Positions 17,663-58,960 of a DNA stretch of 58,960 nt are shown here, piece by piece. The DNA comes from Nemertoderma westbladi (taxonomy: Eukaryota; Animalia; Xenacoelomorpha). The stretch spans positions 1-58,960 of the forward strand of contig JAUCBJ010004680.1 in assembly GCA_032718475.1 (NCBI GenBank). The letters run 5' to 3'. Under the pieces are notes generated by a model. It was not told where the DNA came from, did no database searches, and saw only the letters and a list, made by a program, of their open reading frames with translations. The stretch's first letter is position 1, and each line of letters starts with the position of its first letter. Made by a program: the position numbers and the translations under genes.

Positions 17663-20420
17663 CACCCATCCCCTAAACAACAGACCTGGTACCCACACCC
17701 ATCCCCTAAACAACAGACCTGGTACCCACACCCACCCCCTAAACAAACAACAGACCTGGTACCCACACCCATCCCCTCAAACAACAGATCTGGTACCCAC
17801 ACCCATCCCCTAAACAACAGACCTGGTACCCACACCCATCCCCTAAACAACAGACCTGGTACACACACCCATCCCCTAAACAACAGACCTGGTACCCACA
17901 CCCATCCCCTAAACAAACAACAGACCTGGTACCCACACCCATCCCCTCAAACAACAGACCTGGTACCCACACCCATCCCCTAAACAACAGACCTGGTACC
18001 CACACCCATCCCCTAAACAACAGACCTGGTACCCACACCCATCCCCTAAACAACAGACCTGGTACCCACACCCATCCCCTAAACAACAGACCTGGTACCC
18101 ACACCCATCCCCTAAACAACAGACCTGGTACCCACACCCATCCCCTAAACAACAGACCTGGTACCCACACCCATCCCCTAAACAAACAACAGACCTGGTA
18201 CCCACACCCATCCCCTAAACAACAGACCTGGTACCCACACCCATCCCCTAAACAAACAACAGACCTGGTACCCACACCCATCCCCTAAACAACAGACCTG
18301 GTACCCACACCCATCCCCTAAACAACAGACCTGGTACCCACACCCATCCCCTAAACAACAGACCTGGTACCCACACCCATCCCCTAAACAACAGACCTGG
18401 TACCCACACCCATCCCCTAAACAACAGACCTGGTACCCACACCCATCCCCTAAACAACAGACCTGGTACCCACACCCATCCCCTAAACAACAGACCTGGT
18501 ACCCACACCCATCCCCTAAACAACAGACCTGGTACCCACACCCATCCCCTAAACAACAGACCTGGTACCCACACCCATCCCCTAAACAACAGACCTGGTA
18601 CCCACACCCATCCCCTAAACAACAGACCTGGTACCCACACCCATCCCCTAAACAACAGACCTGGTACCCACACCCATCCCCTAAACAACAGACCTGGTAC
18701 CCACACCCATCCCCTAAACAACAGACCTGGTACCCACACCCATCCCCTAAACAACAGACCTGGTACCCACACCCATCCCCTAAACAACAGACCTGGTACC
18801 CACACCCATCCCCTAAACAACAGACCTGGTACCCACACCCATCCCCTAAACAACAGACCTGGTACCCACACCCATCCCCATTATAAACAACAGATCTGGT
18901 ACCCACACCCATCCCCTAAACAACAGACCTGGTACCCACACCCATCCCCTAAACAACAGACCTGGTACCCACACCCATCCCCTAAAACAACAGACCTGGT
19001 ACCCACACCCATCCCCTAAACAACAGACCTGGTACCCACACCCATCCCCTAAACAACAGACCTGGTACCCACACCCATCCCCTAAACAACAGACCTGGTA
19101 CCCACACCCATCCCCTAAACAACAGACCTGGTACCCACACCCATCCCCTAAACAACAGACCTGGTACCCACACCCATCCCCTAAACAACAGACCTGGTAC
19201 CCACACCCATCCCCTATAAACAACAGACCTGGTACCCACACCCATCCCCTAAACAACAGACCTGGTACCCACACCCATCCCCTAATAAACAACAGACCTG
19301 GTACCCACACCCATCCCCTAAACAACAGACCTGGTACCCACACCCATCCCCATTATAAACAACAGATCTGGTACCCACACCCATCCCCTAAAACAACAGA
19401 CCTGGTACCCACACCCATCCCCTAAACAACAGACCTGGTACCCACACCCATCCCCTAAACAACAGACCTGGTACCCACACCCATCCCCTAAACAACAGAC
19501 CTGGTACCCACACCCATCCCCTAAACAACAGACCTGGTACCCACACCCATCCCCTAAACAACAGACCTGGTACCCACACCCATCCCCTAAACAACAGACC
19601 TGGTACCCACACCCATCCCCTAAACAACAGACCTGGTACCCACACCCATCCCCTAAACAACAGACCTGGTACCCACACCCATCCCCTATTATAAACAACA
19701 GATCTGGTACCCACACCCATCCCCTAAACAACAGACCTGGTACCCACACCCATCCCCTAAACAACAGACCTGGTACCCACACCCATCCCCTAAACAACAG
19801 ACCTGGTACCCACACCCATCCCCTAAACAACAGACCTGGTACCCACACCCATCCCCTAAACAACAGACCTGGTACCCACACCCATCCCCTAAACAACAGA
19901 CCTGGTACCCACACCCATCCCCTAAACAACAGACCTGGTACCCACACCCATCCCCTAAACAACAGACCTGGTACCCACACCCATCCCCTAAACAACAGAC
20001 CTGGTACCCACACCCATCCCCTAAACAACAGACCTGGTACCCACACCCATCCCCTATAACAACAGACCTGGTACCCACACCCATCCCCTAAACAACAGAC
20101 CTGGTACCCACACCCATCCCCTAAACAACGGACCTGGTTACCCACACCCATCCCCTAAACAACAGACCTGGTACCCACACCCATCCCCTAAACAACAGAC
20201 CTGGTACCCACACCCATCCCCTAAACAACAGACCTGGCTGTACCCACACCCATCCCCTACAAACAACAGACCTGGTACCCACACCCATCCCCTAAACAAC
20301 AGAGCTGGTACCCACACCCATCCCCTAAACAACAGACCTGGTACCCACACCCATCCCCTAAACAACAGACCTGGTACCCACACCCATCCCCTAAACAACA
20401 GACCTGTCACCCATCCCCTA
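17663..20420. repeat. 33-bp minisatellite (acccacacccatcccctaaacaacagacctggt), ~83 copies
   Basis: Highly homogeneous tandem array ending ~16 bp from the exon donor at 20436/20437. Confidence 0.97.
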
Positions 20421-20436
20421 TCTATAACCTACTGAC

Positions 20437-20670
20437 CTGGCACCCATCTGCTATCGACTTTCTAAGACTGCCCATCAAAGCGTCATGTAGCTTCTGTATG
20501 TGGTCGTCTATGGCGAGATGAACCGGTAGACAGTTTACAACAATACAGTCTACTCGAATCTCGTGGGGCAGTTTCTCTGCGTCACGTCCGCGGGACTTAA
20601 TAGCTCGAAAGTTTTTCTCCCAATCGGAAACCTCAGACAGATTGCTCTCAATAAGGTCGTCAATGTCGAC
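20437..20670 (-). CDS. DYNC2H1: DYNC2H1 exon (tail), VDIDDLIESNLSEVSDWEKNFRAIKSRGRDAEKLP...SLRKSIADGCQ
   Basis: Acceptor ctttttacag|GTC; donor TGC CAG|gtcagt; 234 nt, phase 0-0; DWEKNF motif. Confidence 0.93.
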
Positions 20671-20887
20671 CTGTAAAAAGTAATAAAATATTATATTAAA
20701 ATAGTACATAGTCTAATAGTCTAAACAAATATTAAATATTGTCGTGACACACAAAGATAGTCCGCGGTATGAAATTATCCTGCCAAACATATTTGGATGG
20801 AATCACAGTGGATGCATTTTACTTATTATACTATTGGATCCATGATAGTAATCAACTGTTATCATTCAGGAAACCATACCAACTTAC

Positions 20888-21155
20888 TTGACCAATCACA
20901 ACCCAGTCGGCGAACTTATCCAAACAGTTCTCCAATCGGAACAAAAGATCTTCGGCCTTCTGATAGACGGCAGTGAAGCAGGAAGCGTTGCGTTCGATGA
21001 TGGATGGGAAGCAGACACCCGCCCCCGTCCCAGATACACCTCGGAAGTGTAGAGGAATACACATAAACTTCTTTAGGTCCCGGTAGTATTTGGCGCGGAT
21101 CTCCTCCAGAGGAGGTTTAAACTGTAAACGTCCTTGACGAAAAACCACGTCGACT
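20888..21155 (-). CDS. DYNC2H1: DYNC2H1 exon (tail), VDVVFRQGRLQFKPPLEEIRAKYYR...DWVVIGQ
   Basis: Acceptor ttttccaacag|A GTC; donor GGT CAA|gtaagt; QGRLQF.PP.EEIRAKYYR motif. Confidence 0.93.
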
Positions 21156-21390
21156 CTGTTGGAAAATAATAAATGTTGTAAAATAATATATCATACTTAA
21201 TGAGTAAACATAAAATAATGGATTAATAAAGGAAAAATAAAGGTAATTGTAATAAAAACTTTATATACATAAAAAAATATTATAATAATACGCCATGATG
21301 AATTTTCAAAATGTTCTAGAAAATGCCATGAAAGCCAATATTACAGCGTAGTTTACAATAATAAATTACAAACAACATTATAATTCCCAC

Positions 21391-21556
21391 CTTATCTCCG
21401 GTAAGTTCTCATTGAGTGACTCCAGACCCAACTGATACTGGTGCTCCAACACTTTATACAACTGCCTATCCCAATGTATCTTCCATGACATCATGTTGCT
21501 TTCCTTGAATCCTTGATTCTGCAGATCTTCCATAACGTGCCGGATATCCATTAAAC
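21391..21556 (-). CDS. DYNC2H1: DYNC2H1 exon (tail), GLMDIRHVMEDLQNQGFKESNMMSWKIHWDRQLYKVLEHQYQLGLESLNENLPEIR
   Basis: Acceptor gtaaaatag|GT TTA; donor ATA AG|gtggga; HW..QLYK.LEHQYQ.GLE.LNENLPEI motif. Not in the ORF track. Confidence 0.92.
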
Positions 21557-21831: not shown

Positions 21832-22389
21832 CTTCCACCCATTTCGGGAGTTGAATGGGTTTATCCACTCCATACCTACTAAATATATCTTTAGTAGGTC
21901 ATGTCCACTCACCTTCCACCCATTTCGGGAGTTGAATGCGTTTATCCACTCCATACCTACTAAAGATATCTTTAGTAGGTCATGTCCACTCACCTTCCAC
22001 CCATTTCGGGAGTTGAATGGGTTTATCCACTCCATACCTACTAAAGATATCTTTAGTAGGTCATGTCCACTCACCTTCCACCCATTTCGGGAGTTGAATG
22101 CGTTTATCCACTCCATACCTACTAAAGATATCTTTAGTAGGTCATGTCCACTCACCTTCCACCCATTTCGGGAGTTGAATGGGTTTATCCACTGCATACC
22201 TACTAAAGATATCTTTAGTAGGTCATGTCCACTCACCTTCCACCCATTTCGGGAGTTGAATGCGTTTATCCACTCCATACCTACTAAAGATATCTTTAGT
22301 AGGTCATGTCCACTCACCTTCCACCCATTTCGGGAGTTGAATGCGTTTATCCACTCCATACCTACTAAAGATATCTTTAGTAGGTCATG
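21832..22389. repeat. 81-bp tandem repeat, ~7 copies, each with a 26-bp palindrome (perfect except one mismatch in the leftmost copy)
   Basis: Unit ccttccacccatttcgggagttgaatgsgtttatccactccatacctactaaagatatctttagtaggtcatgtccactca. Confidence 0.96.
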
Positions 22390-22445
22390 GATTTATCAAC
22401 TCTCCTTCCTCCCATATCGGCAGTTTAATGGATTCATCAACTTAC

Positions 22446-22620
22446 CTTCCTTCCATTTAGGCAGTTGTCTTAGTAAATCGACCCCGATCAGCTGAACAAC
22501 ACGGTCACAGATATCGAAGTGGCATTTCCTGAGTCGTCTGTTATCCGTGGTCAGTCGGTCTGCCGATTTCTGAAGTTTGTCGATGTAGGTCTCCAGTTGT
22601 TCGGGGTTGTCCCAGGTTAC
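22446..22620 (-). CDS. DYNC2H1: DYNC2H1 exon (tail), VTWDNPEQLETYIDKLQKSADRLTTDNRRLRKCHFDICDRVVQLIGVDLLRQLPKWKE; the most 5' exon found in the window
   Basis: Acceptor ctttatccag|GTA ACC TGG; donor GAA G|gtaag; TWDNP..LE.YI.KLQ and DLLRQ motifs. Not in the ORF track. Confidence 0.92.
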
Positions 22621-24518: not shown

Positions 24519-25865
24519 CTATTGTTTTTTATCTTGACATTTGAAGTGAGTATCCATAACGAATAAGCTCAAGGCGCACAGAATAACAAAAAATGACGTC
24601 AGAAAGGCAGTGAGAGCGCCTAGTGGCCATTTAACGTCATAGACCTGAAAGCAAACCGAAACGCCAATCATTATGATGTATAACGAGCAGAAAATAACGA
24701 ACAAAGCGAGGCGATTCCTTAGCAGCCGAGACACACCGACCCAAATCTTAGACCGAGATAAATAGGTTACAAACAAAAGAAGGAGCCCCAGAACAGTGTA
24801 CTCGATAACTGGAATACGAATAACTTCGGTTAGCCGTAGAAAGTAGGATTCGCCAGGTTTCTGTAGGAATTTATATGAGATGAGAGTGGCGGTGGTAAAA
24901 CTAAGTGGCATAATCCACCGGCATAAATGTAAGTTTCTTTTAATAAATGGAATTGTAAAGATTTGAGTGAAAGAGAAAATAAAGAAAAATCCAAAAAAGA
25001 ACATTGGCCAGAAAACGATAGGGCCGCCTGTCTGATAAGCGACGATTCCAGAATGTATAGTGACCCACGATTCTAGGAAGACTCGCCAATACGGGTTGAG
25101 ATGCACTCTAGTGTAAGCGAGACTACCTTGTAACATTATAGTGTAGGTGTGTACCACGCCGCCAAAATGGCCCACAGTGTTCTCCATCGGGTGGTACCAG
25201 AACGTGTAGACAGAGGCCCACATAAAGGCGTACCCATGGTAACGTCTCAGTACTCTAGTCCCGTACGCAGTAGCGGCAGTTAACGCGGGGGATGAACCCA
25301 GGAGGAAACCTCTGGATGGGTATTCCATAGCGAGAACGAATATTAGAAGCATTATAACGGAGGACTGGCTGCTCGCGATAGAAACATCCTGAGCTAACCC
25401 GTCGTAGAATAAATGAGTGTGAATTAAATGAAGACAATGGAAGATGACATTGACGGCGAATAGACGGAAGTTAAACAAACGGTAACTCCCGATGTACTTC
25501 GTCGGTGGATGCTGCGATTGAGCGCCGTACAGGATCAACCAGTTGGCTAGGAGATGGGTTGTAAACAGGGCCCATACGGAGACTCTGCTACCGATAGTGA
25601 CTCGAGACGGGGGCAGCTTCCAGTAGTACCAACGGGCCTCGCGGTCCAGGCCGTGTCTGCCCACCGCTCCGGGCCCCTCGTCCAGGCTCGGTTCCGGGAG
25701 GAACCGATCTCTCGAGGTTCTACTGGCGTTGTGGACCCATCCCGAATCGGCGTCCCATCCCCGCCAACCACCCACGCTGAATATTGCGACGCATAACAGC
25801 AGTAAGTAGACAATGCCCAAACCCCAACCGAGTATGTCTTGTCGAATTCCCGATTTATAATCCAT
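24519..25865 (-). CDS. Intronless 448-aa multi-pass membrane protein of unknown function (His/Trp-rich), nested in a DYNC2H1 intron on the same strand
   Basis: Uninterrupted 1347-nt non-repetitive ORF with higher GC than its AT-rich flanks and a good Kozak context (acaATGG). About ten hydrophobic segments. Motifs WYYWKLP, HTHLFYDGLAQDVS..SSQ.SVI, YHGY, YTFWYHPME, LQGSL..TR.H.N and WPMFFFGF. AATAAA signals lie downstream on the minus strand (~24441-24446, 24481-24486). Confidence 0.88.
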   Translation of the reverse strand: MDYKSGIRQDILGWGLGIVYLLLLCVAIFSVGGWRGWDADSGWVHNASRTSRDRFLPEPSLDEGPGAVGRHGLDREARWYYWKLPPSRVTIGSRVSVWALFTTHLLANWLILYGAQSQHPPTKYIGSYRLFNFRLFAVNVIFHCLHLIHTHLFYDGLAQDVSIASSQSSVIMLLIFVLAMEYPSRGFLLGSSPALTAATAYGTRVLRRYHGYAFMWASVYTFWYHPMENTVGHFGGVVHTYTIMLQGSLAYTRVHLNPYWRVFLESWVTIHSGIVAYQTGGPIVFWPMFFFGFFFIFSFTQIFTIPFIKRNLHLCRWIMPLSFTTATLISYKFLQKPGESYFLRLTEVIRIPVIEYTVLGLLLLFVTYLSRSKIWVGVSRLLRNRLALFVIFCSLYIIMIGVSVCFQVYDVKWPLGALTAFLTSFFVILCALSLFVMDTHFKCQDKKQ

Positions 25866-38276: not shown

Positions 38277-41200
38277 ATATACAACCCACCTGTACTTTGT
38301 CACCATAGAGAGAGATACTCCATATACAACCCACCTGTACTTTGTCACCATAGAGATACTCCATATACAACCCACCTGTACTTTGTCACCATGGAGATAC
38401 TCCATATACAACCCACCTGTACTTTGTCACCATAGAGATACTCCATATACAACCCACCTGTACTTTGTCACCATAGAGATACTCCATATACAACCCACCT
38501 GTACTTTGTCACCATGGAGATACTCCATATACAACCCACCTGTACTTTGTCACCATGGAGATACTCCATATACAACCCACCTGTACTTTGTCACCATAGA
38601 GATACTCCATATACAACCCACCTGTACTTTGTCACCATAGAGATACTCCATATACAACCCACCTGTACTTTGTCACCATGGAGATACTCCATATACAACC
38701 CACCTGTACTTTGTCACCATGGAGATACTCCATATACAACCCACCTGTACTTTGTCACCATAGAGAGAGATACTCCATATACAACCCACCTGTACTTTGT
38801 CACCATAGAGATACTCCATATACAACCCACCTGTACTTTGTCACCATGGAGATACTCCATATACAACCCACCTGTACTTTGTCACCATAGAGATACTCCA
38901 TATACAACCCACCTGTACTTTGTCACCATGGAGATACTCCATATACAACCCACCTGTACTTTGTCACCATAGAGATACTCCATATACAACCCACCTGTAC
39001 TTTGTCACCATGGAGATACTCCATATACAACCCACCTGTACTTTGTCACCATGGAGATACTCCATATACAACCCACCTGTACTTTGTCACCATAGAGATA
39101 CTCCATATACAACCCACCTGTACTTTGTCACCATGGAGATACTCCATATACAACCCACCTGTACTTTGTCACCATAGAGATACTCCATATACAACCCACC
39201 TGTACTTTGTCACCATAGAGATACTCCATATACAACCCACCTGTACTTTGTCACCATGGAGATACTCCATATACAACCCACCTGTACTTTGTCACCATAG
39301 AGATACTCCATATACAACCCACCTGTACTTTGTCACCATGGAGATACTCCATATACAACCCACCTGTACTTTGTCACCATGGAGATACTCCATATACAAC
39401 CCACCTGTACTTTGTCACCATAGAGATACTCCATATACAACCCACCTGTACTTTGTCACCATAGAGATACTCCATATACAACCCACCTGTACTTTGTCAC
39501 CATGGAGATACTCCATATACAACCCACCTGTACTTTGTCACCATGGAGATACTCCATATACAACCCACCTGTACTTTGTCACCATAGAGATACTCCATAT
39601 ACAACCCACCTGTACTTTGTCACCATGGAGATACTCCATATACAACCCACCTGTACTTTGTCACCATGGAGATACTCCATATACAACCCACCTGTACTTT
39701 GTCACCATGGAGATACTCCATATACAACCCACCTGTACTTTGTCACCATGGAGATACTCCATATACAACCCACCTGTACTTTGTCACCATAGAGATACTC
39801 CATATACAACCCACCTGTACTTTGTCACCATAGAGATACTCCATATACAACCCACCTGTACTTTGTCACCATAGAGATACTCCATATACAACCCACCTGT
39901 ACTTTGTCACCATGGAGATACTCCATATACAACCCACCTGTACTTTGTCACCATGGAGATACTCCATATACAACCCACCTGTACTTTGTCACCATGGAGA
40001 TACTCCATATACAACCCACCTGTACTTTGTCACCATAGAGATACTCCATATACAACCCACCTGTACTTTGTCACCATAGAGATACTCCATACACAACCCA
40101 CCTGTACTTTGTCACCATGGAGATACTCCATATACAACCCACCTGTACTTTGTCACCATGGAGATACTCCATATACAACCCACCTGTACTTTGTCACCAT
40201 GGAGATACTCCATATACAACCCACCTGTACTTTGTCACCATGGAGATACTCCATATACAACCCACCTGTACTTTGTCACCATGGAGATACTCCATATACA
40301 ACCCACCTGTACTTTGTCACCATAGAGATACTCCATATACAACCCACCTGTACTTTGTCACCATGGAGATACTCCATATACAACCCACCTGTACTTTGTC
40401 ACCATGGAGATACTCCATATACAACCCACCTGTACTTTGTCACCATAGAGATACTCCATATACAACCCACCTGTACTTTGTCACCATGGAGATACTCCAT
40501 ATACAACCCACCTGTACTTTGTCACCATGGAGATACTCCATATACAACCCACCTGTACTTTGTCACCATAGAGATACTCCATATACAACCCACCTGTACT
40601 TTGTCACCATAGAGATACTCCATATACAACCCACCTGTACTTTGTCACCATAGAGATACTCCATATACAACCCACCTGTACTTTGTCACCATGGAGATAC
40701 TCCATATACAACCCACCTGTACTTTGTCACCATAGAGAGAGATACTCCATATACAACCCACCTGTACTTTGTCACCATAGAGATACTCCATATACAACCC
40801 ACCTGTACTTTGTCACCATGGAGATACTCCATATACAACCCACCTGTACTTTGTCACCATAGAGAGAGATACTCCATATACAACCCACCTGTACTTTGTC
40901 ACCATAGAGAGAGATACTCCATATACAACCCACCTGTACTTTGTCACCATAGAGATACTCCATACACAACCCACCTGTACTTTGTCACCATAGAGAGAGA
41001 TACTCCATATACAACCCACCTGTACTTTGTCACCATAGAGATACTCCATATACAACCCACCTGTACTTTGTCACCATAGAGATACTCCATATACAACCCA
41101 CCTGTACTTTGTCACCATAGAGAGAGATACTCCATATACAACCCACCTGTACTTTGTCACCATAGAGATACTCCATATACAACCCACCTGTACTTTGTCA

Positions 41201-44200
41201 CCATAGAGATACTCCATATACAACCCACCTGTACTTTGTCACCATAGAGATACTCCATATACAACCCACCTGTACTTTGTCACCATAGAGAGAGATACTC
41301 CATATACAACCCACCTGTACTTTGTCACCATAGAGATACTCCATATACAACCCACCTGTACTTTGTCACCATAGAGATACTCCATATACAACCCACCTGT
41401 ACTTTGTCACCATAGAGATACTCCATATACAACCCACCTGTACTTTGTCACCATAGAGAGAGATACTCCATATACAACCCACCTGTACTTTGTCACCATA
41501 GAGATACTCCATATACAACCCACCTGTACTTTGTCACCATAGAGATACTCCATATACAACCCACCTGTACTTTATCACCATAGAGATACTCCATATACAA
41601 CCCACCTGTACTTTATCACCATAGAGATACTCCATACACAACCCACCTGTACTTTGTCACCATAGAGATACTCCATATACAACCCACCTGTACTTTGTCA
41701 CCATAGAGAGAGATACTCCATATACAACCCACCTGTACTTTGTCACCATAGAGATACTCCATACACAACCCACCTGTACTTTATCACCATAGAGATACTC
41801 CATACACAACCCACCTGTACTTTGTCACCATAGAGATACTCCATATACAACCCACCTGTACTTTGTCACCATAGAGAGAGATACTCCATATACAACCCAC
41901 CTGTACTTTGTCACCATAGAGAGAGATACTCCATACACAACCCACTGTACTTTATCACCATAGAGATACTCCATACACAACCCACCTGTACTTTGTCACC
42001 ATAGAGATACTCCATATACAACCCACCTGTACTTTGTCACCATGGAGATACTCCATATACAACCCACCTGTACTTTGTCACCATAGAGATACTCCATACA
42101 CAACCCACCTGTACTTTGTCACCATAGAGATACTCCATACACAACCCACCTGTACTTTGTCACCATAGAGATACTCCATATACAACCCACCTGTACTTTG
42201 TCACCATAGAGAGAGATACTCCATATACAACCCACCTGTACTTTATCACCATAGAGATACTCCATACACAACCCACCTGTACTTTATCACCATAGAGATA
42301 CTCCATACACAACCCACCTGTACTTTGTCACCATAGAGATACTCCATATACAACCCACCTGTACTTTGTCACCATAGAGAGAGATACTCCATACACAACC
42401 CACCTGTACTTTATCACCATAGAGATACTCCATACACAACCCACCTGTACTTTATCACCATAGAGATACTCCATACACAACCCACCTGTACTTTGTCACC
42501 ATAGAGATACTCCATATACAACCCACCTGTACTTTGTCACCATAGAGAGAGATACTCCATATACAACCCACCTGTACTTTATCACCATAGAGAGAGATAC
42601 TCCATATACAACCCACCTGTACTTTATCACCATAGAGAGAGATACTCCATATACAACCCACCTGTACTTTATCACCATAGAGAGAGATACTCCATATACA
42701 ACCCACCTGTACTTTATCACCATAGAGAGAGATACTCCATACACAACCCACCTGTACTTTGTCACCATAGAGATACTCCATATACAACCCACCTGTACTT
42801 TGTCACCATAGAGAGAGATACTCCATATACAACCCACCTGTACTTTATCACCATAGAGATACTCCATATACAACCCACCCGTACTTTGTCACCATGGAGA
42901 TACTCCATATACAACCCACCTGTACTTTGTCACCATGGAGATACTCCATATACAACCCACCTGTACTTTGTCACCATGGAGATACTCCATATACAACCCA
43001 CCCGTACTTTGTCACCATGGAGATACTCCATATACAACCCACCTGTACTTTGTCACCATGGAGATACTCCATATACAACCCACCTGTACTTTATCACCAT
43101 AGAGATACTCCATATACAACCCACCTGTACTTTGTCACCATGGAGATACTCCATATACAACCCACCCGTACTTTGTCACCATGGAGATACTCCATATACA
43201 ACCCACCTGTACTTTGTCACCATGGAGATACTCCATATACAACCCACCTGTACTTTATCACCATAGAGATACTCCATATACAACCCACCCGTACTTTGTC
43301 ACCATGGAGATACTCCATATACAACCCACCTGTACTTTGTCACCATGGAGATACTCCATATACAACCCACCTGTACTTTGTCACCATGGAGATACTCCAT
43401 ATACAACCCACCCGTACTTTGTCACCATGGAGATACTCCATATACAACCCACCCGTACTTTGTCACCATGGAGATACTCCATATACAACCCACCTGTACT
43501 TTGTCACCATGGAGATACTCCATATACAACCCACCTGTACTTTGTCACCATAGAGAGAGATACTCCATATACAACCCACTGTACTTTATCACCATAGAGA
43601 TACTCCATATACAACCCACCTGTACTTTATCACCATAGAGATACTCCATACACAACCCACCTGTACTTTGTCACCATAGAGATACTCCATATACAACCCA
43701 CCTGTACTTTGTCACCATGGAGATACTCCATATACAACCCACCTGTACTTTGTCACCATAGAGATACTCCATACACAACCCACCTGTACTTTATCACCAT
43801 AGAGATACTCCATATACAACCCACTGTACTTTATCACCATAGAGATACTCCATATACAACCCACCTGTACTTTGTCACCATGGAGATACTCCATATACAA
43901 CCCACCCGTACTTTGTCACCATGGAGATACTCCATATACAACCCACCCGTACTTTGTCACCATGGAGATACTCCATATACAACCCACCTGTACTTTGTCA
44001 CCATGGAGATACTCCATATACAACCCACCTGTACTTTGTCACCATAGAGAGAGATACTCCATATACAACCCACTGTACTTTATCACGATAGAGATACTCC
44101 ATATACAACCCACCTGTACTTTATCACCATAGAGATACTCCATACACAACCCACCTGTACTTTGTCACCATAGAGATACTCCATATACAACCCACCTGTA

Positions 44201-47200
44201 CTTTGTCACCATGGAGATACTCCATATACAACCCACCTGTACTTTGTCACCATAGAGATACTCCATACACAACCCACCTGTACTTTATCACCATAGAGAT
44301 ACTCCATATACAACCCACCTGTACTTTGTCACCATGGAGATACTCCGTATACAACCCACCGTTACTTTGTCACCATAGAGATACTCCATACACAACCCAC
44401 CTGTACTTTGTCACCATGGAGATACTCCATATACAACCCACTGTACTTTGTCACCATGGAGATACTCCATATACAACCCACCTGTACTTTGTCACCATAG
44501 AGATACTCCATACACAACCCACCTGTACTTTATCACCATAGAGATACTCCATATACAACCCACCTGTACTTTGTCACCATGGAGATACTCCGTATACAAC
44601 CCACCGTTACTTTGTCACCATAGAGAGAGATACTCCATACACAACCCACCTGTACTTTGTCACCATGGAGATACTCCATATACAACCCACCTGTACTTTG
44701 TCACCATAGAGATACTCCATACACAACCCACCTGTACTTTATCACCATGGAGATACTCCATATACAACCCACCTGTACTTTGTCACCATAGAGATACTCC
44801 ATATACAACCCACCTGTACTTTGTCACCATGGAGATACTCCGTATACAACCCACCGTTACTTTGTCACCATAGAGAGAGATACTCCATACACAACCCACC
44901 TGTACTTTGTCACCATGGAGATACTCCATATACAACCCACCTGTACTTTGTCACCATAGAGATACTCCATATACAACCCACTGTACTTTGTCACCATGGA
45001 GATACTCCATACACAACCCACCTGTACTTTGTCACCATAGAGATACTCCATATACAACCCACCTGTACTTTGTCACCATGGAGATACTCCGTATACAACC
45101 CACCGTTACTTTGTCACCATAGAGAGAGATACTCCATACACAACCCACCTGTACTTTGTCACCATGGAGATACTCCATATACAACCCACCTGTACTTTGT
45201 CACCATAGAGATACTCCATACACAACCCACCTGTACTTTATCACCATGGAGATACTCCATATACAACCCACCTGTACTTTGTCACCATAGAGATACTCCA
45301 TATACAACCCACTGTACTTTGTCACCATGGAGATACTCCATACACAACCCACCTGTACTTTGTCACCATGGAGATACTCCATATACAACCCACCTGCACT
45401 TTGTCACCATAGAGATACTCCATATACAACCCACCTGTACTTTGTCACCATAGAGATACTCCATATACAACCCACCTGTACTTTGTCACCATGGAGATAC
45501 TCCATATACAACCCACCTGTACTTTGTCACCATAGAGATACTCCATATACAACCCACCTGTACTTTGTCACCATAGAGATACTCCATATACAACCCACCT
45601 GTACTTTGTCACCATGGAGATACTCCATATACAACCCACCTGTACTTTGTCACCATAGAGATACTCCATATACAACCCACCTGTACTTTGTCACCATAGA
45701 GATACTCCATATACAACCCACCTGTACTTTGTCACCATAGAGATACTCCATATACAACCCACCTGTACTTTGTCACCATGGAGATACTCCATATACAACC
45801 CACCTGTACTTTGTCACCATAGAGATACTCCATATACAACCCACCTGTACTTTGTCACCATGGAGATACTCCATACACAACCCACCTGTACTTTATCACC
45901 ATAGAGATACTCCATATACAACCCACTGTACTTTATCACCATAGAGATACTCCATACACAACCCACCTGTACTTTGTCACCATGGAGATACTCCATATAC
46001 AACCCACCTGTACTTTGTCACCATAGAGATACTCCATATACAACCCACCTGTACTTTGTCACCATAGAGATACTCCATATACAACCCACCTGTACTTTAT
46101 CACCATAGAGATACTACATATACAACCCACTGTACTTTGTCACCATAGAGATACTCCATACACAACCCACCTGTACTTTGTCACCATGGAGATACTCCAT
46201 ATACAACCCACCTGTACTTTGTCACCATAGAGAGAGATACTCCATACACAACCCACCTGTACTTTATCACCATAGAGATACTCCATACACAACCCACCTG
46301 TACTTTGTCACCATGGAGATACTCCATATACAACCCACCTGTAATTTGTCACCATAGAGATACTCCATACACAACCCACCTGTACTTTATCACCATGGAG
46401 ATACTCCATATACAACCCACTGTACTTTATCACCATAGAGATACTCCATACACAACCCACCTGTACTTTGTCACCATAGAGATACTCCATATACAACCCA
46501 CCTGTACTTTGTCACCATAGAGAGAGATACTCCATACACAACCCACCTGTACTTTATCACCATAGAGATACTCCATACACAACCCACCTGTACTTTGTCA
46601 CCATGGAGATACTCCATATACAACCCACCTGTAATTTGTCACCATAGAGATACTCCATACACAACCCACCTGTACTTTATCACCATGGAGATACTCCATA
46701 TACAACCCACTGTACTTTATCACCATAGAGATACTCCATATACAACCCACCTGTACTTTGTCACCATAGAGATACTCCATATACAACCCACCTGTACTTT
46801 GTCACCATAGAGATACTCCATATACAACCCACCTGTACTTTATCACCATAGAGATACTCCATACACAACCCACCTGTAATTTGTCACCATAGAGATACTC
46901 CATATACAACCCACCTGTACTTTATCACCATGGAGATACTCCATATACAACCCACTGTACTTTATCACCATAGAGATACTCCATATACAACCCACTGTAC
47001 TTTATCACCATAGAGATACTCCATACACAACCCACCTGTAATTTGTCACCATAGAGATACTCCATACACAACCCACCTGTACTTTATCACCATGGAGATA
47101 CTCCATATACAACCCACTGTACTTTATCACCATAGAGATACTCCATACACAACCCACCTGTACTTTGTCACCATAGAGATACTCCATATACAACCCACCT

Positions 47201-50200
47201 GTACTTTGTCACCATAGAGAGAGATACTCCATACACAACCCACCTGTACTTTATCACCATAGAGATACTCCATACACAACCCACCTGTACTTTGTCACCA
47301 TGGAGATACTCCATATACAACCCACCTGTAATTTGTCACCATAGAGATACTCCATACACAACCCACCTGTACTTTATCACCATGGAGATACTCCATATAC
47401 AACCCACTGTACTTTATCACCATAGAGATACTCCATACACAACCCACCTGTACTTTGTCACCATAGAGATACTCCATATACAACCCACCTGTACTTTGTC
47501 ACCATAGAGATACTCCATATACAACCCACCTGTACTTTATCACCATAGAGATACTCCATACACAACCCACCTGTAATTTGTCACCATAGAGATACTCCAT
47601 ACACAACCCACCTGTACTTTATCACCATGGAGATACTCCATATACAACCCACTGTACTTTATCACCATAGAGATACTCCATACACAACCCACCTGTAATT
47701 TGTCACCATAGAGATACTCCATACACAACCCACCTGTACTTTATCACCATGGAGATACTCCATATACAACCCACCTGTACTTTATCACCATAGAGATACT
47801 CCATATACAACCCACCTGTACTTTGTCACCATAGAGATACTCCATACACAACCCACCTGTACTTTGTCACCATAGAGATACTCCATACACAACCCACCTG
47901 TAATTTGTCACCATAGAGATACTCCATACACAACCCACCTGTACTTTATCACCATGGAGATACTCCATATACAACCCACCTGTACTTTATCACCATAGAG
48001 ATACTCCATACACAACCCACCTGTAATTTGTCACCATAGAGATACTCCATACACAACCCACCTGTACTTTATCACCATGGAGATACTCCATATACAACCC
48101 ACCTGTACTTTGTCACCATAGAGATACTCCATATACAACCCACCTGTACTTTATCACCATGGAGATACTCCATATACAACCCACTGTACTTTATCACCAT
48201 AGAGATACTCCATACACAACCCACCTGTACTTTGTCACCATAGAGATACTCCATACACAACCCACCTGTACTTTGTCACCATAGAGATACTCCATATACA
48301 ACCCACCTGTACTTTGTCACCATAGAGATACTCCATATACAACCCACCTGTACTTTATCACCATGGAGATACTCCATATACAACCCACTGTACTTTATCA
48401 CCATAGAGATACTCCATACACAACCCACCTGTACTTTGTCACCATAGAGATACTCCATATACAACCCACCTGTACTTTGTCACCATAGAGAGAGATACTC
48501 CATACACAACCCACCTGTACTTTATCACCATAGAGATACTCCATACACAACCCACCTGTACTTTATCACCATAGAGATACTCCATACACAACCCACCTGT
48601 ACTTTATCACCATAGAGATACTCCATACACAACCCACCTGTACTTTATCACCATAGAGATACTCCATACACAACCCACCTGTACTTTATCACCATAGAGA
48701 TACTCCATACACAACCCACCTGTACTTTGTCACCATAGAGATACTCCATATACAACCCACCTGTACTTTGTCACCATAGAGAGATACTCCATACACAACC
48801 CACCTGTACTTTATCACCATAGAGATACTCCATACACAACCCACCTGTACTTTATCACCATAGAGATACTCCATACACAACCCACCTGTACTTTATCACC
48901 ATAGAGATACTCCATACACAACCCACCTGTACTTTATCACCATAGAGATACTCCATACACAACCCACCTGTACTTTATCACCATAGAGATACTCCATACA
49001 CAACCCACCTGTACTTTATCACCATAGAGATACTCCATACACAACCCACCTGTACTTTGTCACCATAGAGATACTCCATATACAACCCACCTGTACTTTG
49101 TCACCATAGAGAGATACTCCATACACAACCCACCTGTACTTTATCACCATAGAGATACTCCATACACAACCCACCTGTACTTTGTCACCATAGAGATACT
49201 CCATATACAACCCACCTGTACTTTGTCACCATGGAGATACTCCATATACAACCCACCTGTACTTTGTCACCATAGAGATACTCCATATACAACCCACCTG
49301 TACTTTGTCACCATAGAGATACTCCATATACAACCCACCTGTACTTTGTCACCATGGAGATACTCCATATACAACCCACCTGTACTTTGTCACCATAGAG
49401 ATACTCCATATACAACCCACCTGTACTTTGTCACCATAGAGATACTCCATATACAACCCACCTGTACTTTGTCACCATAGAGATACTCCATATACAACCC
49501 ACCTGTACTTTGTCACCATGGAGATACTCCATATACAACCCACCTGTACTTTGTCACCATAGAGATACTCCATATACAACCCACCTGTACTTTGTCACCA
49601 TAGAGATACTCCATATACAACCCACCTGTACTTTGTCACCATAGAGATACTCCATATACAACCCACCTGTACTTTGTCACCATAGAGATACTCCATATAC
49701 AACCCACCTGTACTTTGTCACCATAGAGATACTCCATATACAACCCACTGTACTTTGTCACCATAGAGATACTCCATACACAACCCACCTGTACTTTGTC
49801 ACCATGGAGATACTCCATACACAACCCACCTGTACTTTATCACCATAGAGATACTCCATATACAACCCACTGTACTTTGTCACCATAGAGATACTCCATA
49901 TACAACCCACCTGTACTTTGTCACCATAGAGATACTCCATACACAACCCACCTGTACTTTATCACCATAGAGATACTCCATATACAACCCACCTGTACTT
50001 TGTCACCATAGAGATACTCCATATACAACCCACCTGTACTTTGTCACCATAGAGATACTCCATATACAACCCACCTGTACTTTGTCACCATAGAGATACT
50101 CCATATACAACCCACTGTACTTTGTCACCATAGAGATACTCCATACACAACCCACCTGTACTTTGTCACCATGGAGATACTCCATACACAACCCACCTGT

Positions 50201-53200
50201 ACTTTATCACCATAGAGATACTCCATATACAACCCACTGTACTTTGTCACCATAGAGATACTCCATATACAACCCACCTGTACTTTGTCACCATAGAGAT
50301 ACTCCATACACAACCCACCTGTACTTTGTCACCATAGAGATACTCCATATACAACCCACCTGTACTTTGTCACCATAGAGATACTCCATATACAACCCAC
50401 TGTACTTTGTCACCATAGAGATACTCCATACACAACCCACCTGTACTTTGTCACCATAGGAGATACTCCATACACAACCCACCTGTACTTTATCACCATA
50501 GAGATACTCCATATACAACCCACTGTACTTTGTCACCATAGAGATACTCCATATACAACCCACCTGTACTTTGTCACCATAGAGATACTCCATACACAAC
50601 CCACCTGTACTTTATCACCATAGAGATACTCCATATACAACCCACCTGTACTTTGTCACCATAGAGATACTCCATACACAACCCACCTGTACTTTATCAC
50701 CATAGAGATACTCCATATACAACCCACCTGTACTTTATCACCATAGAGATACTCCATATACAACCCACCTGTACTTTGTCACCATAGAGATACTCCATAT
50801 ACAACCCACTGTACTTTGTCACCATAGAGATACTCCATACACAACCCACCTGTACTTTGTCACCATGGAGATACTCCATACACAACCCACCTGTACTTTA
50901 TCACCATAGAGATACTCCATATACAACCCACCTGTACTTTGTCACCATAGAGATACTCCATATACAACCCACCTGTACTTTGTCACCATAGAGATACTCC
51001 ATACACAACCCACCTGTACTTTATCACCATAGAGATACTCCATATACAACCCACCTGTACTTTGTCACCATAGAGATACTCCATACACAACCCACCTGTA
51101 CTTTATCACCATAGAGATACTCCATATACAACCCACTGTACTTTGTCACCATAGAGATACTCCATATACAACCCACCTGTACTTTGTCACCATAGAGATA
51201 CTCCATATACAACCCACTGTACTTTGTCACCATAGAGATACTCCATATACAACCCACCTGTACTTTGTCACCATAGAGATACTCCATACACAACCCACCT
51301 GTACTTTATCACCATAGAGATACTCCATATACAACCCACCTGTACTTTGTCACCATAGAGATACTCCATACACAACCCACCTGTACTTTATCACCATAGA
51401 GATACTCCATATACAACCCACTGTACTTTGTCACCATAGAGATACTCCATATACAACCCACCTGTACTTTATCACCATAGAGATACTCCATACACAACCC
51501 ACCTGTACTTTGTCACCATAGAGATACTCCATATACAACCCACCTGTACTTTGTCACCATAGAGATACTCCATATACAACCCACTGTACTTTGTCACCAT
51601 AGAGATACTCCATATACAACCCACCTGTACTTTATCACCATAGAGATACTCCATATACAACCCACCTGTACTTTGTCACCATAGAGATACTCCATATACA
51701 ACCCACCTGTACTTTGTCACCATAGAGATACTCCATATACAACCCACCTGTACTTTGTCACCATAGAGATACTCCATATACAACCCACCTGTACTTTATC
51801 ACCATAGAGATACTCCATATACAACCCACCTGTACTTTGTCACCATAGAGATACTCCATATACAACCCACCTGTACTTTGTCACCATAGAGATACTCCAT
51901 ATACAACCCACCTGTACTTTGTCACCATAGAGATACTCCATATACAACCCACTGTACTTTGTCACCATAGAGATACTCCATATACAACCCACCTGTACTT
52001 TGTCACCATAGAGATACTCCATATACAACCCACCTGTACTTTGTCACCATAGAGATACTCCATATACAACCCACCTGTACTTTGTCACCATAGAGATACT
52101 CCATATACAACCCACCTGTACTTTGTCACCATAGAGATACTCCATATACAACCCACCTGTACTTTATCACCATAGAGATACTCCATATACAACCCACCTG
52201 TACTTTGTCACCATAGAGATACTCCATATACAACCCACCTGTACTTTGTCACCATAGAGATACTCCATATACAACCCACCTGTACTTTGTCACCATAGAG
52301 ATACTCCATATACAACCCACCTGTACTTTGTCACCATAGAGATACTCCATATACAACCCACCTGTACTTTGTCACCATAGAGATACTCCATATACAACCC
52401 ACCTGTACTTTGTCACCATAGAGATACTCCATATACAACCCACCTGTACTTTGTCACCATAGAGATACTCCATATACAACCCACCTGTACTTTGTCACCA
52501 TAGAGATACTCCATACACAACCCACCTGTACTTTATCACCATAGAGATACTCCATATACAACCCACCTGTACTTTGTCACCATAGAGATACTCCATACAC
52601 AACCCACCTGTACTTTATCACCATAGAGATACTCCATATACAACCCACCTGTACTTTGTCACCATAGAGATACTCCATATACAACCCACCTGTACTTTGT
52701 CACCATAGAGATACTCCATATACAACCCACTGTACTTTGTCACCATAGAGATACTCCATATACAACCCACCTGTACTTTGTCACCATAGAGATACTCCAT
52801 ACACAACCCACCTGTACTTTATCACCATAGAGATACTCCATATACAACCCACCTGTACTTTGTCACCATAGAGATACTCCATACACAACCCACCTGTACT
52901 TTATCACCATAGAGATACTCCATATACAACCCACTGTACTTTGTCACCATAGAGATACTCCATATACAACCCACCTGTACTTTATCACCATAGAGATACT
53001 CCATACACAACCCACCTGTACTTTGTCACCATAGAGATACTCCATATACAACCCACCTGTACTTTGTCACCATAGAGATACTCCATATACAACCCACTGT
53101 ACTTTGTCACCATAGAGATACTCCATATACAACCCACCTGTACTTTATCACCATAGAGATACTCCATATACAACCCACCTGTACTTTGTCACCATAGAGA

Positions 53201-56200
53201 TACTCCATATACAACCCACCTGTACTTTGTCACCATAGAGATACTCCATATACAACCCACCTGTACTTTGTCACCATAGAGATACTCCATATACAACCCA
53301 CCTGTACTTTGTCACCATAGAGATACTCCATATACAACCCACCTGTACTTTATCACCATAGAGATACTCCATATACAACCCACTGTACTTTATCACCATA
53401 GAGATACTCCATACACAACCCACCTGTACTTTGTCACCATAGAGATACTCCATATACAACCCACCTGTACTTTATCACCATAGAGATACTCCATATACAA
53501 CCCACTGTACTTTGTCACCATAGAGATACTCCATATACAACCCACCTGTACTTTGTCACCATGGAGATACTCCATATACAACCCACCTGTACTTTGTCAC
53601 CATAGAGATACTCCATATACAACCCACTGTACTTTATCACCATAGAGATACTCCATACACAACCCACCTGTACTTTGTCACCATGGAGATACTCCATATA
53701 CAACCCACCTGTACTTTGTCACCATAGAGATACTCCATATACAACCCACTGTACTTTATCACCATAGAGATACTCCATACACAACCCACCTGTACTTTGT
53801 CACCATAGAGATACTCCATATACAACCCACCTGTACTTTGTCACCATAGAGATACTCCATATACAACCCACCTGTACTTTATCACCATAGAGATACTCCA
53901 TATACAACCCACTGTACTTTGTCACCATAGAGATACTCCATATACAACCCACCTGTACTTTGTCACCATGGAGATACTCCATATACAACCCACCTGTACT
54001 TTGTCACCATAGAGATACTCCATATACAACCCACTGTACTTTGTCACCATGGAGATACTCCATATACAACCCACCTGTACTTTGTCACCATAGAGATACT
54101 CCATATACAACCCACTGTACTTTATCACCATAGAGATACTCCATACACAACCCACCTGTACTTTGTCACCATAGAGATACTCCATATACAACCCACCTGT
54201 ACTTTATCACCATAGAGATACTCCATATACAACCCACTGTACTTTGTCACCATAGAGATACTCCATATACAACCCACCTGTACTTTGTCACCATGGAGAT
54301 ACTCCATATACAACCCACCTGTACTTTGTCACCATAGAGATACTCCATATACAACCCACTGTACTTTATCACCATAGAGATACTCCATACACAACCCACC
54401 TGTACTTTATCACCATGGAGATACTCCATATACAACCCACCTGTACTTTGTCACCATAGAGAGATACTCCATACACAACCCACCTGTACTTTATCACCAT
54501 AGAGAGAGATACTCCATATACAACCCACCTGTACTTTGTCACCATAGAGATACTCCATATACAACCCACCTGTACTTTATCACCATAGAGATACTCCATA
54601 TACAACCCACTGTACTTTGTCACCATAGAGATACTCCATATACAACCCACCTGTACTTTGTCACCATAGAGATACTCCATATACAACCCACTGTACTTTA
54701 TCACCATAGAGATACTCCATACACAACCCACCTGTACTTTGTCACCATGGAGATACTCCATACACAACCCACCTGTACTTTGTCACCATAGAGATACTCC
54801 ATATACAACCCACCTGTACTTTGTCACCATAGAGATACTCCATATACAACCCACTGTACTTTGTCACCATAGAGATACTCCATATACAACCCACCTGTAC
54901 TTTGTCACCATAGAGATACTCCATATACAACCCACCTGTACTTTGTCACCATAGAGATACTCCATATACAACCCACTGTACTTTATCACCATAGAGATAC
55001 TCCATATACAACCCACCTGTACTTTGTCACCATAGAGATACTCCATATACAACCCACTGTACTTTATCACCATAGAGATACTCCATATACAACCCACCTG
55101 TACTTTGTCACCATAGGAGATACTCCATATACAACCCACTGTACTTTATCACCATAGAGATACTCCATACACAACCCACCTGTACTTTGTCACCATAGAG
55201 AGATACTCCATATACAACCCACTGTACTTTATCACCATAGAGATACTCCATACACAACCCACCTGTACTTTGTCACCATAGAGATACTCCATATACAACC
55301 CACCTGTACTTTGTCACCATAGAGAGAGATACTCCATATACAACCCACTGTACTTTATCACCATAGAGATACTCCATATACAACCCACCTGTACTTTGTC
55401 ACCATAGAGAGATACTCCATACACAACCCACCTGTACTTTGTCACCATAGAGATACTCCATATACAACCCACCTGTACTTTGTCACCATAGAGAGATACT
55501 CCATATACAACCCACTGTACTTTGTCACCATAGAGATACTCCATATACAACCCACCTGTACTTTGTCACCATAGAGATACTCCATATACAACCCACTGTA
55601 CTTTGTCACCATAGAGATACTCCATATACAACCCACCTGTACTTTGTCACCATAGAGAGAGATACTCCATATACAACCCACCTGTACTTTGTCACCATAG
55701 AGATACTCCATATACAACCCACTGTACTTTGTCACCATAGAGATACTCCATATACAACCCACTGTACTTTATCACCATAGAGATACTCCATATACAACCC
55801 ACCTGTACTTTGTCACCATAGAGATACTCCATATACAACCCACCTGTACTTTGTCACCATAGAGATACTCCATACACAACCCACTGTACTTTATCACCAT
55901 AGAGATACTCCATACACAACCCACCTGTACTTTGTCACCATAGAGATACTCCATACACAACCCACCTGTACTTTGTCACCATAGAGAGAGATACTCCATA
56001 TACAACCCACCTGTACTTTGTCACCATAGAGATACTCCATATACAACCCACCTGTACTTTGTCACCATAGAGATACTCCATATACAACCCACCTGTACTT
56101 TGTCACCATAGAGATACTCCATATACAACCCACCTGTACTTTGTCACCATAGAGATACTCCATACACAACCCACCTGTACTTTGTCACCATAGAGAGATA

Positions 56201-58960
56201 CTCCATATACAACCCACCTGTACTTTGTCACCATAGAGATACTCCATATACAACCCACTGTACTTTGTCACCATAGAGAGATACTCCATATACAACCCAC
56301 TGTACTTTATCACCATAGAGATACTCCATATACAACCCACCTGTACTTTATCACCATAGAGATACTCCATACACAACCCACCTGTACTTTATCACCATAG
56401 AGATACTCCATACACAACCCACCTGTACTTTGTCACCATAGAGATACTCCATACACAACCCACCTGTACTTTGTCACCATAGAGAGATACTCCATACACA
56501 ACCCACCTGTACTTTGTCACCATAGAGATACTCCATATACAACCCACTGTACTTTATCACCATAGAGATACTCCATACACAACCCACCTGTACTTTGTCA
56601 CCATAGAGATACTCCATATACAACCCACCTGTACTTTGTCACCATAGAGAGATACTCCATATACAACCCACTGTACTTTATCACCATAGAGATACTCCAT
56701 ACACAACCCACTGTACTTTATCACCATAGAGATACTCCATACACAACCCACCTGTACTTTGTCACCATAGAGATACTCCATATACAACCCACCTGTACTT
56801 TGTCACCATAGAGATACTCCATATACAACCCACTGTACTTTATCACCATAGAGATACTCCATATACAACCCACTGTACTTTATCACCATAGAGATACTCC
56901 ATACACAACCCACCTGTACTTTGTCACCATAGAGATACTCCATACACAACCCACCTGTACTTTGTCACCATAGAGATACTCCATACACAACCCACCTGTA
57001 CTTTGTCACCATAGAGATACTCCATACACAACCCACCTGTACTTTGTCACCATAGAGATACTCCATACACAACCCACCTGTACTTTGTCACCATAGAGAT
57101 ACTCCATACACAACCCACCTGTACTTTGTCACCATAGAGATACTCCATATACAACCCACCTGTACTTTGTCACCATAGAGATACTCCATATACAACCCAC
57201 TGTACTTTGTCACCATAGAGATACTCCATATACAACCCACTGTACTTTATCACCATAGAGATACTCCATACACAACCCACTGTACTTTATCACCATAGAG
57301 ATACTCCATACACAACCCACCTGTACTTTGTCACCATAGAGATACTCCATATACAACCCACTGTACTTTGTCACCATAGAGATACTCCATATACAACCCA
57401 CCTGTACTTTATCACCATAGAGATACTCCATACACAACCCACCTGTACTTTGTCACCATAGAGAGAGATACTCCATATACAACCCACTGTACTTTATCAC
57501 CATAGAGATACTCCATACACAACCCACTGTACTTTGTCACCATAGAGATACTCCATATACAACCCACCTGTACTTTGTCACCATAGAGATACTCCATATA
57601 CAACCCACCTGTACTTTGTCACCATAGAGATACTCCATATACAACCCACCTGTACTTTGTCACCATAGAGAGATACTCCATATACAACCCACTGTACTTT
57701 GTCACCATAGAGATACTCCATATACAACCCACCTGTACTTTATCACCATAGAGATACTCCATATACAACCCACCTGTACTTTGTCACCATAGAGATACTC
57801 CATATACAACCCACTGTACTTTGTCACCATAGAGATACTCCATACACAACCCACCTGTACTTTGTCACCATAGAGATACTCCATATACAACCCACCTGTA
57901 CTTTATCACCATAGAGATACTCCATATACAACCCACCTGTACTTTGTCACCATAGAGATACTCCATATACAACCCACTGTACTTTGTCACCATAGAGATA
58001 CTCCATATACAACCCACTGTACTTTATCACCATAGAGATACTCCATACACAACCCACCTGTACTTTGTCACCATAGAGATACTCCATATACAACCCACCT
58101 GTACTTTATCACCATAGAGATACTCCATATACAACCCACCTGTACTTTGTCACCATAGAGATACTCCATATACAACCCACTGTACTTTGTCACCATAGAG
58201 ATACTCCATATACAACCCACTGTACTTTATCACCATAGAGATACTCCATATACAACCCACCTGTACTTTGTCACCATAGAGATACTCCATATACAACCCA
58301 CTGTACTTTATCACCATAGAGATACTCCATACACAACCCACCTGTACTTTGTCACCATAGAGATACTCCATATACAACCCACCTGTACTTTATCACCATA
58401 GAGATACTCCATATACAACCCACCTGTACTTTGTCACCATAGAGATACTCCATATACAACCCACCTGTACTTTGTCACCATAGAGATACTCCATATACAA
58501 CCCACCTGTACTTTGTCACCATAGAGATACTCCATATACAACCCACCTGTACTTTATCACCATAGAGATACTCCATATACAACCCACCTGTACTTTATCA
58601 CCATAGAGATACTCCATATACAACCCACTGTACTTTATCACCATAGAGATACTCCATATACAACCCACTGTACTTTGTCACCATAGAGATACTCCATATA
58701 CAACCCACCTGTACTTTGTCACCATAGAGATACTCCATATACAACCCACCTGTACTTTGTCACCATAGAGATACTCCATATACAACCCACCTGTACTTTG
58801 TCACCATAGAGATACTCCATATACAACCCACCTGTACTTTGTCACCATAGAGATACTCCATATACAACCCACCTGTACTTTGTCACCATAGAGATACTCC
58901 ATATACAACCCACTGTACTTTATCACCATAGAGATACTCCATATACAACCCACTGTACTT
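38277..58960. repeat. 41-bp satellite (atatacaacccacctgtactttgtcaccatagagatactcc), >20.6 kb, ~500 copies, runs off the window end
   Basis: Tandem array with 40, 43 and 45-bp length variants and a few recurring SNP variants. It explains all ORFs from 38.2 kb onwards. Confidence 0.98.

What the first reader, a model, noticed from the sequence alone, without database searches (positions are those of the whole stretch)
17663..58960. Recurrent pattern: intronic satellites seeded from the host gene's own exon/5' splice-site junctions
Seen in sequence: in two introns the repeat unit aligns with the end of the upstream exon plus its donor, and the array starts right behind that donor. For the 33-bp array, gatgggtgccag|gtcagt (exon) matches gatgggtgtgggtaccag|gtctgt (unit). 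For the 81-bp array, caactgcctaaatggaaggaag|gtaag matches caactcccgaaatgggtggaag|gtgag. A third array (41 bp) has ggtgacaaagtacag|gtgggt on the sense strand and lies toward the 5' end of the giant intron. Inference: tandem duplication repeatedly starts across the donor junction and then amplifies. This would be a systematic intron-expansion process that leaves hundreds of decoy donors, possibly affecting splice-site choice, recursive splicing or U1 loading. I know of no named system matching this.
Basis: partly seen in the sequence, partly recalled or inferred. Interest (0 to 1): 0.85.

Follow-up and report, generated by a model that had tools for sequence, protein, structure and literature searches.

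The report
Three splice-donor satellites in dynein-2 gene
In an animal's dynein-2 motor gene, three exon ends and their splice signals are each repeated head-to-tail into the next intron (about 7, 82 and over 500 copies), an unusually large case of a known repeat type ("mirage" minisatellites) whose spare signals are likely ignored during splicing.

Summary
The window holds part of DYNC2H1 (minus strand, seven exons, open 1,821-codon spliced frame). The 33-bp and 81-bp units each match their own upstream donor better than all 5,370 background 34-mers. The 41-bp unit reads G-D-K-V-Q|GT, the residues homologs have just before the next exon. DNA contigs from two samples join an off-window exon straight into this unit. 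So 3 of 7 introns open with a donor-seeded array, together 45% of the window's intron DNA; 4 other large arrays match no junction. The exon copy, not the array, keeps the conserved codons, so copying ran exon to intron (shown for one array, likely for two).

The claim that no named system matches is wrong. These are 'mirage' minisatellites (lancelet Adh3 and globins), also known from human F7, IFI6, CBS, LMNB2 and PDGF, where mostly the first donor is used. New here are the scale (over 500 copies against 3-25) and the recurrence. The scan found this before on other DNA of the same genome (34 of 79 notes mention it; unchecked). No RNA was available, so decoy use is untested. A true bias toward donors is not proven from one window.

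The parts
38277..58960 (-). 41-bp donor-seeded array in the giant intron; at least 502 copies, runs off the window; unit = exon tail encoding G-D-K-V-Q + GT donor + intron start
   Evidence: 412 intact CAG|GTGGGT sites, 79 with one G lost
22446..22620 (-). DYNC2H1 exon a (VTWDNP...WKEG); its donor seeds the 41/81-bp array, and its phase-0 acceptor receives the off-window exon that seeds the 41-bp array
22405..22445 (-). primary 41-nt duplication of the exon-a junction; its donor GT is lost (GA)
21832..22404 (-). 81-bp array: the 41-nt junction copy plus the start of another plus a perfect 26-nt palindrome; 6 decoys AAG|GTGAGT
21391..21556 (-). DYNC2H1 exon b
20888..21155 (-). DYNC2H1 exon c
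20437..20670 (-). DYNC2H1 exon d; its donor (CAG|GTCAGT) seeds the 33-bp array
20404..20436 (-). diverged first copy of the 33-bp unit, directly behind the real donor
17663..20403 (-). 33-bp donor-seeded array, about 82 copies, 76 intact CAG|GTCTGT decoys
16305..16487 (-). DYNC2H1 exon e (its donor does not match the 66/30-bp array that follows)
4657..4814 (-). DYNC2H1 exon f
1..4280 (-). DYNC2H1 exon g, at least 4.28 kb without an intron (DHC_N2, AAA_6, DYNC2H1_AAA_dom)

Best explanation
Three introns of this dynein-2 gene open with tandem arrays whose unit is the upstream exon's end plus its 5' splice site, and these likely arose as short tandem duplications across the donor that then expanded like ordinary minisatellites and are likely tolerated because the first donor is used. 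Steps: (1) shown: each unit is homologous to its own junction and to no other donor at that level; (2) shown for the 81-bp array, inferred from conserved residues for the 41-bp array and by analogy for the 33-bp array: the exon is the template; (3) inferred from diverged edge copies and homogeneous interiors: expansion by slippage, unequal exchange or conversion, at three different ages (30/30, 18/22 and 25/31 identity to the junction); (4) inferred, untested: splicing takes the most upstream donor, and transcripts that use a decoy meet a stop within 12, 47 or about 70 nt (or shift frame) and would be degraded. A duplication wholly inside an exon would be purged, whereas one across a donor leaves the exon intact, so it can survive and grow.
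For: Cognate-only alignment scores above all 5,370 background 34-mers. Profile test 0 of 1,632 GT sites. Exon-to-unit contigs in two samples. Exon d, donor, first copy and array start are bridged by single contigs in X1 and X2 with no difference listed between 20377 and 20478. The exon keeps W-K-E-G while the copies read W-E-E and W-V-E; W-[KR]-[DE]-[GSA] is found in 106 of 120 homologs. Diverged boundary copies, as in lancelet mirages. Early stops behind each donor. First-donor use is reported for F7, LMNB2 and PDGF, and lancelet mirages do not disturb splicing.
Against: No RNA evidence was obtained for this gene. The 81-bp decoys (AAG|GTGAGT) are consensus-quality donors. Human IFI6 and CBS do use the next one or two pseudo-sites. 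4 of 7 large arrays here are not junction-derived, so array birth is not confined to junctions. The residues at the exon-d end are poorly conserved, so direction is not shown for the 33-bp array. No contig bridges the more than 20 kb between the off-window exon and the window's 41-bp array.
Confidence: 0.8

Rival explanations
1. There is no special pull toward splice junctions. This genome spawns minisatellites everywhere in introns, ancestral introns were short (about 220-380 nt), and so many surviving seeds overlap a junction by geometry. This accepts the origin of the three arrays and denies only the 'systematic' bias.
For: The array-free introns are 217, 235 and 376 nt. With 250-nt introns, P(at least 3 of 7 at donors) = 0.056, and 0.29 for either junction. 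4 of 7 arrays are not junctional.
Against: With today's residual intron DNA, P = 0.0014 for donors and 0.0099 for either junction. All three are donors and none is a clear acceptor. Earlier scan notes report many such genes in this genome (unchecked and selected).
Confidence: 0.35
2. The decoy donors are kept for a function: they load U1 snRNP along giant introns (protection from premature polyadenylation), act as a recursive-splicing ladder, or tune dynein-2 levels through unproductive splicing.
For: Hundreds of intact GT sites; 6 of 7 large arrays have a G-rich sense strand.
Against: The decoys have fewer T (3-5 of 17) and pyrimidines (5-7) upstream than all 7 real acceptors (T 7-12, Y 8-13), so they are poor ratchet points. 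Donor-weakening variants accumulate rather than being purged: 5 of 7 changed bases in the 33-bp array hit the +1 G, the first 41-nt copy at exon a lost its GT, and the G-loss variant of the 41-bp unit falls from 17 of 50 on the exon side to 0 of 51 at the far end.
Confidence: 0.1
3. The arrays came first (a dispersed satellite or mobile element) and supplied or resemble the donors by insertion, conversion or chance.
For: The 81-bp unit holds a 26-nt palindrome of unknown origin. No whole genome was available to look for dispersed copies.
Against: Three unrelated units each match their own adjacent junction in register and in sense. The exon versions carry residues conserved across animals.
Confidence: 0.04

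Closest known systems
Lancelet 'mirage' minisatellites (Adh3, globins BflGb6 and BflGb9, troponin C, PGBD5). Seen: passages of PMC3087553 and PMC3902484; the original Adh3 and troponin C papers and the supplements were not seen
   Same: [quoted passage not shown]
   Different: Copy number is 3-6 in BflGb6 against about 7, 82 and over 500 here. Three arrays lie in seven consecutive introns, all at donors. The host is not a lancelet (64% protein identity to Branchiostoma).
Human junction-spanning VNTRs: F7 IVS7 (37 bp, 5-9 copies), IFI6/6-16 (25 pseudo-sites), CBS IVS13 (15-20), LMNB2 (10-15), PDGF intron 4 (16-18). Seen: abstract, Introduction and Discussion of PMC1557585
   Same: The first monomer holds the authentic donor; pseudo-donors are reiterated into the intron.
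   Different: One array per gene and at most 25 copies. Splicing was measured there (first donor, sometimes also the next two) and not here.
Drosophila Y-linked dynein genes (kl-3, kl-5) with satellite-filled giant introns. Seen: search listing and abstract starts only (PMC6508621, PMC11207136)
   Same: A dynein heavy-chain gene whose introns are mostly tandem repeat (82% of intron DNA here, summed).
   Different: Those introns reach megabases. That their repeats are simple satellites not derived from junctions is recalled, not read. The dynein link is probably a coincidence, as scan notes list many other genes.

Membership tests
mirage / junction-spanning minisatellite | tandem unit spans an exon-intron boundary of the host gene | tested here: met
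mirage / junction-spanning minisatellite | first monomer is the authentic junction and the array adjoins it | tested here: met
   33-bp and 41/81-bp arrays; 41-bp unit joined to the exon in contigs; the link to the window's array is not bridged
mirage / junction-spanning minisatellite | many copies keep a splice signal | tested here: met
   76 of about 82, 6 of 8 exon-end copies, 412 of about 503
mirage / junction-spanning minisatellite | concerted evolution: homogeneous interior, diverged edge copies | tested here: met
   62 of 83 pieces identical in the 33-bp array, first copy diverged; the same pattern at exon a
mirage / junction-spanning minisatellite | regular splicing at the authentic site is undisturbed | not testable with these tools
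   no run behaved as RNA
mirage / junction-spanning minisatellite | copy-number polymorphism between alleles | tested here: inconclusive
   unit variants appear in both samples, but contigs cannot count copies
recursive-splicing ratchet points | AG|GT preceded by an acceptor-type pyrimidine tract | tested here: not met
   the three donor decoys have T 3-5 and Y 5-7 of 17, against T 7-12 and Y 8-13 at 7 real acceptors (the requirement itself is recalled)
recursive-splicing ratchet points | saw-tooth nascent RNA or recursive junction reads | not testable with these tools
   no RNA run

The most novel reading that the evidence does not exclude
This animal has a genome-wide, transcription- or splicing-coupled mutational bias that seeds tandem duplications at 5' splice sites and inflates them into satellites of tens of kilobases. 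Splice junctions would then be a main engine of its intron growth, and its genes a natural test of how the spliceosome picks one donor among hundreds of near-identical ones.
Probability: 0.3. Interest if true: 0.75.

Novelty: new variant of a known kind. Interest (0 to 1): 0.45.

Why it matters
In the papers read, junction-spanning minisatellites are small oddities (3-25 copies, single genes). Here they reach satellite scale and make up 45% of the intron DNA in this window. If the donor bias holds genome-wide, it is a route of intron and genome expansion I did not find described as a systematic process. It would also make the 'first donor wins' rule testable at 500 or more competing sites, and it bears on the duplication model of intron gain. 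If only short introns plus a high repeat birth rate are behind it, it is a large but ordinary example.

Tried and rejected
Whole-genome test: impossible, no genome is held. RNA: no RNA holder listed; the five runs laid (X1-X5) showed no spliced joints and X5 laid nothing. This is no evidence on expression or splicing. The 66/30-bp array of intron 5 as junction-derived: a by-eye resemblance to exon e failed (1,381 and 284 of 5,000 shuffles at the donor; 609 and 288 of 1,500 against the whole exon). Its 30-bp variant weakly resembles the first 77 intron bases (23 of 1,500), not counted. The 16/48-, 31-, 35-, 27-, 37-, 17-, 28-, 26- and 42-bp repeats match no junction. Searching units against all exon DNA without anchoring has no power: even the true pairs are lost (16 and 78 of 100 shuffles). 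The first exon coordinates were off by 1-2 bases and were corrected. Extending the 41-bp profile test beyond five codons lowers the score (6 codons still 0 of 1,632; 9 codons 1-13 of 1,630), as expected if the unit holds only about 16 exon bases. Lineage: the quick tree leaves the gene on a long unplaced branch (no acoel sequences among the 22 references; the careful tree did not finish), so the 'acoel' label in earlier notes is unconfirmed. Literature searches for a genome-wide description found none (open-access library only). PMC10565955 (passages) gives acoelomorph intron sizes but those passages mention no such arrays.

Full report
Host gene. The window carries part of cytoplasmic dynein-2 heavy chain (DYNC2H1) on the minus strand. 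The best homologs are 62-65% identical, and Pfam finds DHC_N2, AAA_6 and DYNC2H1_AAA_dom. tblastn with 8 homologs places six short exons. With the 4.28-kb exon they splice at GT-AG junctions into 1,821 codons without a stop: a 22620-22446, b 21556-21391, c 21155-20888, d 20670-20437, e 16487-16305, f 4814-4657, g 4280 to the window edge. No earlier exon was found between 22621 and 58960, so that intron exceeds 36 kb. Three introns are short and array-free (217, 235, 376 nt); four are 69-90% tandem repeat. The organism is an animal on a long branch, not a lancelet (64% to Branchiostoma), and is otherwise unplaced (quick tree, 22 references chosen from 120 hits).

Checking the observation. I aligned the modal unit of 15 repeats to all 13 junctions in the window, against 5,370 background 34-mers. 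Only two pairs exceed the whole background, and both are cognate. They are the 33-bp unit with the exon-d donor (18 of 22 matches; 1 of 5,000 shuffles as good) and the 81-bp unit with the exon-a donor (25 of 31; 0 of 5,000). The next best were the 81-bp unit with the non-cognate exon-d donor (p 0.003) and a 30-bp repeat with the exon-f acceptor (p 0.004), which is about what 195 comparisons can give. Walking in from the exon shows a gradient. Behind exon d comes one diverged 33-nt copy, then near-identical units. Behind exon a comes a 41-nt copy whose GT has become GA, then 81-bp units built from that 41-nt copy, the start of another and a perfect 26-nt palindrome.

The third array. Read in frame up to its GT, the unit gives G-D-K-V-Q. 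In 32 invertebrate homologs, the five residues before the [IV]TWDNP motif that opens exon a are most often G, G/E/D, K, V, Q. A profile from these positions scores the unit above all 1,632 GT sites in the window's non-array DNA, and the phase (0) fits exon a's acceptor. This predicted that the missing upstream exon runs straight into the unit. Laying public contigs on the array edge confirmed it. In X1, which may be the source of the window, and in X3, another sample and study, a contig matches a unit for 30 nt and continues into the same unique sequence. For X3 the match is 30 of 30: 16 exon bases and 14 intron bases. By my hand translation, the 30 loose letters shown are an open frame with an N-P pair whose N lies 15 codons before the donor. 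55 of 110 homologs have this N at -14 or -15, 2 elsewhere, and 53 have none. No contig bridges from that exon to the window's array, but the identity of the exon makes the assignment secure. The exon-d junction with its first copies is also bridged in X1 and X2, so these structures are not assembly artefacts.

Direction and age. At exon a the exon encodes W-K-E-G, matching a motif found in 106 of 120 homologs. The copies read W-E-E and W-V-E, so the exon is the template. For the 41-bp array, exon and unit are identical and the residues are conserved, so the same direction is likely. For the 33-bp array the exon end is poorly conserved and the direction is inferred only by analogy. Identity to the junction (30/30, 18/22, 25/31) points to independent events of different age.

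How general. Three of seven introns open with a donor-seeded array, together 24 kb, or 45% of intron DNA in the window (summed). The other four large arrays (66/30, 16/48, 31 and 35 bp) match no junction. Random seeding gives P = 0.0014 for at least 3 of 7 at donors on today's residual intron DNA, but 0.056 if introns were 250 nt at the time, and 0.29 if either junction counts. The window was also selected for this pattern. Earlier notes of this scan describe the same structure in many other genes of this genome: 34 of 79 notes contain the word 'mirage'. They are unchecked AI notes on selected windows, so I take them as a lead, not as support. No genome was held for a direct test.

Likely consequences. 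Intact decoys number 76, 6 and 412. Their match to an 11-base U1-complementary consensus (recalled) is 7 of 11, against 9 and 8 for the real exon-d and exon-a donors; the 81-bp decoys still fit the MAG|GTRAGT consensus given. Use of any decoy at exon d or exon a would include an in-frame stop 12 or 47 nt into the intron. In the 41-bp array the first decoy shifts the frame and a stop follows at about nt 70. The decoys lack the T-rich tract of this gene's acceptors, which argues against recursive splicing. There are hints of mild selection against decoys. In the 33-bp array, 5 of 7 changed bases hit the +1 G, though from perhaps 2-3 events. In the 41-bp array a G-loss variant, also seen in contigs of both samples, falls from 17 of 50 units on the exon side to 0 of 51 distally. 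Local homogenisation could produce both patterns. No RNA could be examined, so the splicing outcome is inferred from known cases.

What is known. PMC3087553 (passages) describes tandem duplications of exon-intron boundaries in lancelet globins and Adh3, names them 'mirages', and reports undisturbed splicing, concerted evolution with excluded edges and an unclear mechanism. PMC3902484 (one passage) adds PGBD5 and troponin C. PMC1557585 (abstract, Introduction, Discussion) lists F7, 6-16, CBS, LMNB2 and PDGF, and shows that F7 pseudo-donors are functional but lose to the most upstream site. I found F7 by my own search; the mirage lead came from earlier scan notes and I checked it in the papers. 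Supplements and the original Adh3 paper were not seen and could hold larger copy numbers. Seven searches of the open-access library found no genome-wide or satellite-scale description.

Verdict. It is a known kind, with new scale and density. Interest 0.45; 0.75 if a genome-wide donor bias beyond short-intron geometry is shown (probability about 0.3).

Noticed in passing
window 24522-25865 (-): An uninterrupted 447-codon ORF for a hydrophobic, probably membrane, protein is nested on the same strand inside the giant dynein intron. No Pfam family. Best hits are uncharacterised marine invertebrate proteins (40-44%, E about 1e-100), with shorter bacterial relatives, many actinobacterial.
   Followed up: partly
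window 1-4280 (-): A single exon of at least 4.28 kb covers much of the dynein stem and the first AAA domains, next to six ordinary short exons; it suggests local intron loss (that other animals have many introns here is recalled, not tested).
   Followed up: no
window 4935-5059: A 30-bp repeat (4 copies) 120 nt upstream of the exon-f acceptor matches that acceptor at 11 of 12 bases (11 of 5,000 shuffles). It may be an old acceptor-type mirage, or chance given the number of tests.
   Followed up: partly
window 5847-58960, large arrays: 6 of 7 large arrays have a G-rich sense strand (skew +0.27 to +0.73; unique intron DNA +0.03); only the 35-bp array is reversed (-0.81). This would fit transcription-coupled (R-loop) expansion; untested.
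   Followed up: partly
window 21832-22389: Each 81-bp unit holds a perfect 26-nt palindrome found nowhere else in the window, with a second donor-like site (TAG|GTATGG) at its end.
   Followed up: partly
window 34014-34140 and 34416-35023: The 42/32-bp repeat and the 31-bp array look like the same unit family in opposite orientation about 280 bp apart (by eye), possibly the ends of a foldback-type element.
   Followed up: no
window 5862-16227: The 66/30-bp array shows higher-order duplication: the block near 12900-13760 recurs near 14700-15550, and the unit shifts from a 66-bp dimer to a 30-bp monomer toward the exon-e side.
   Followed up: no
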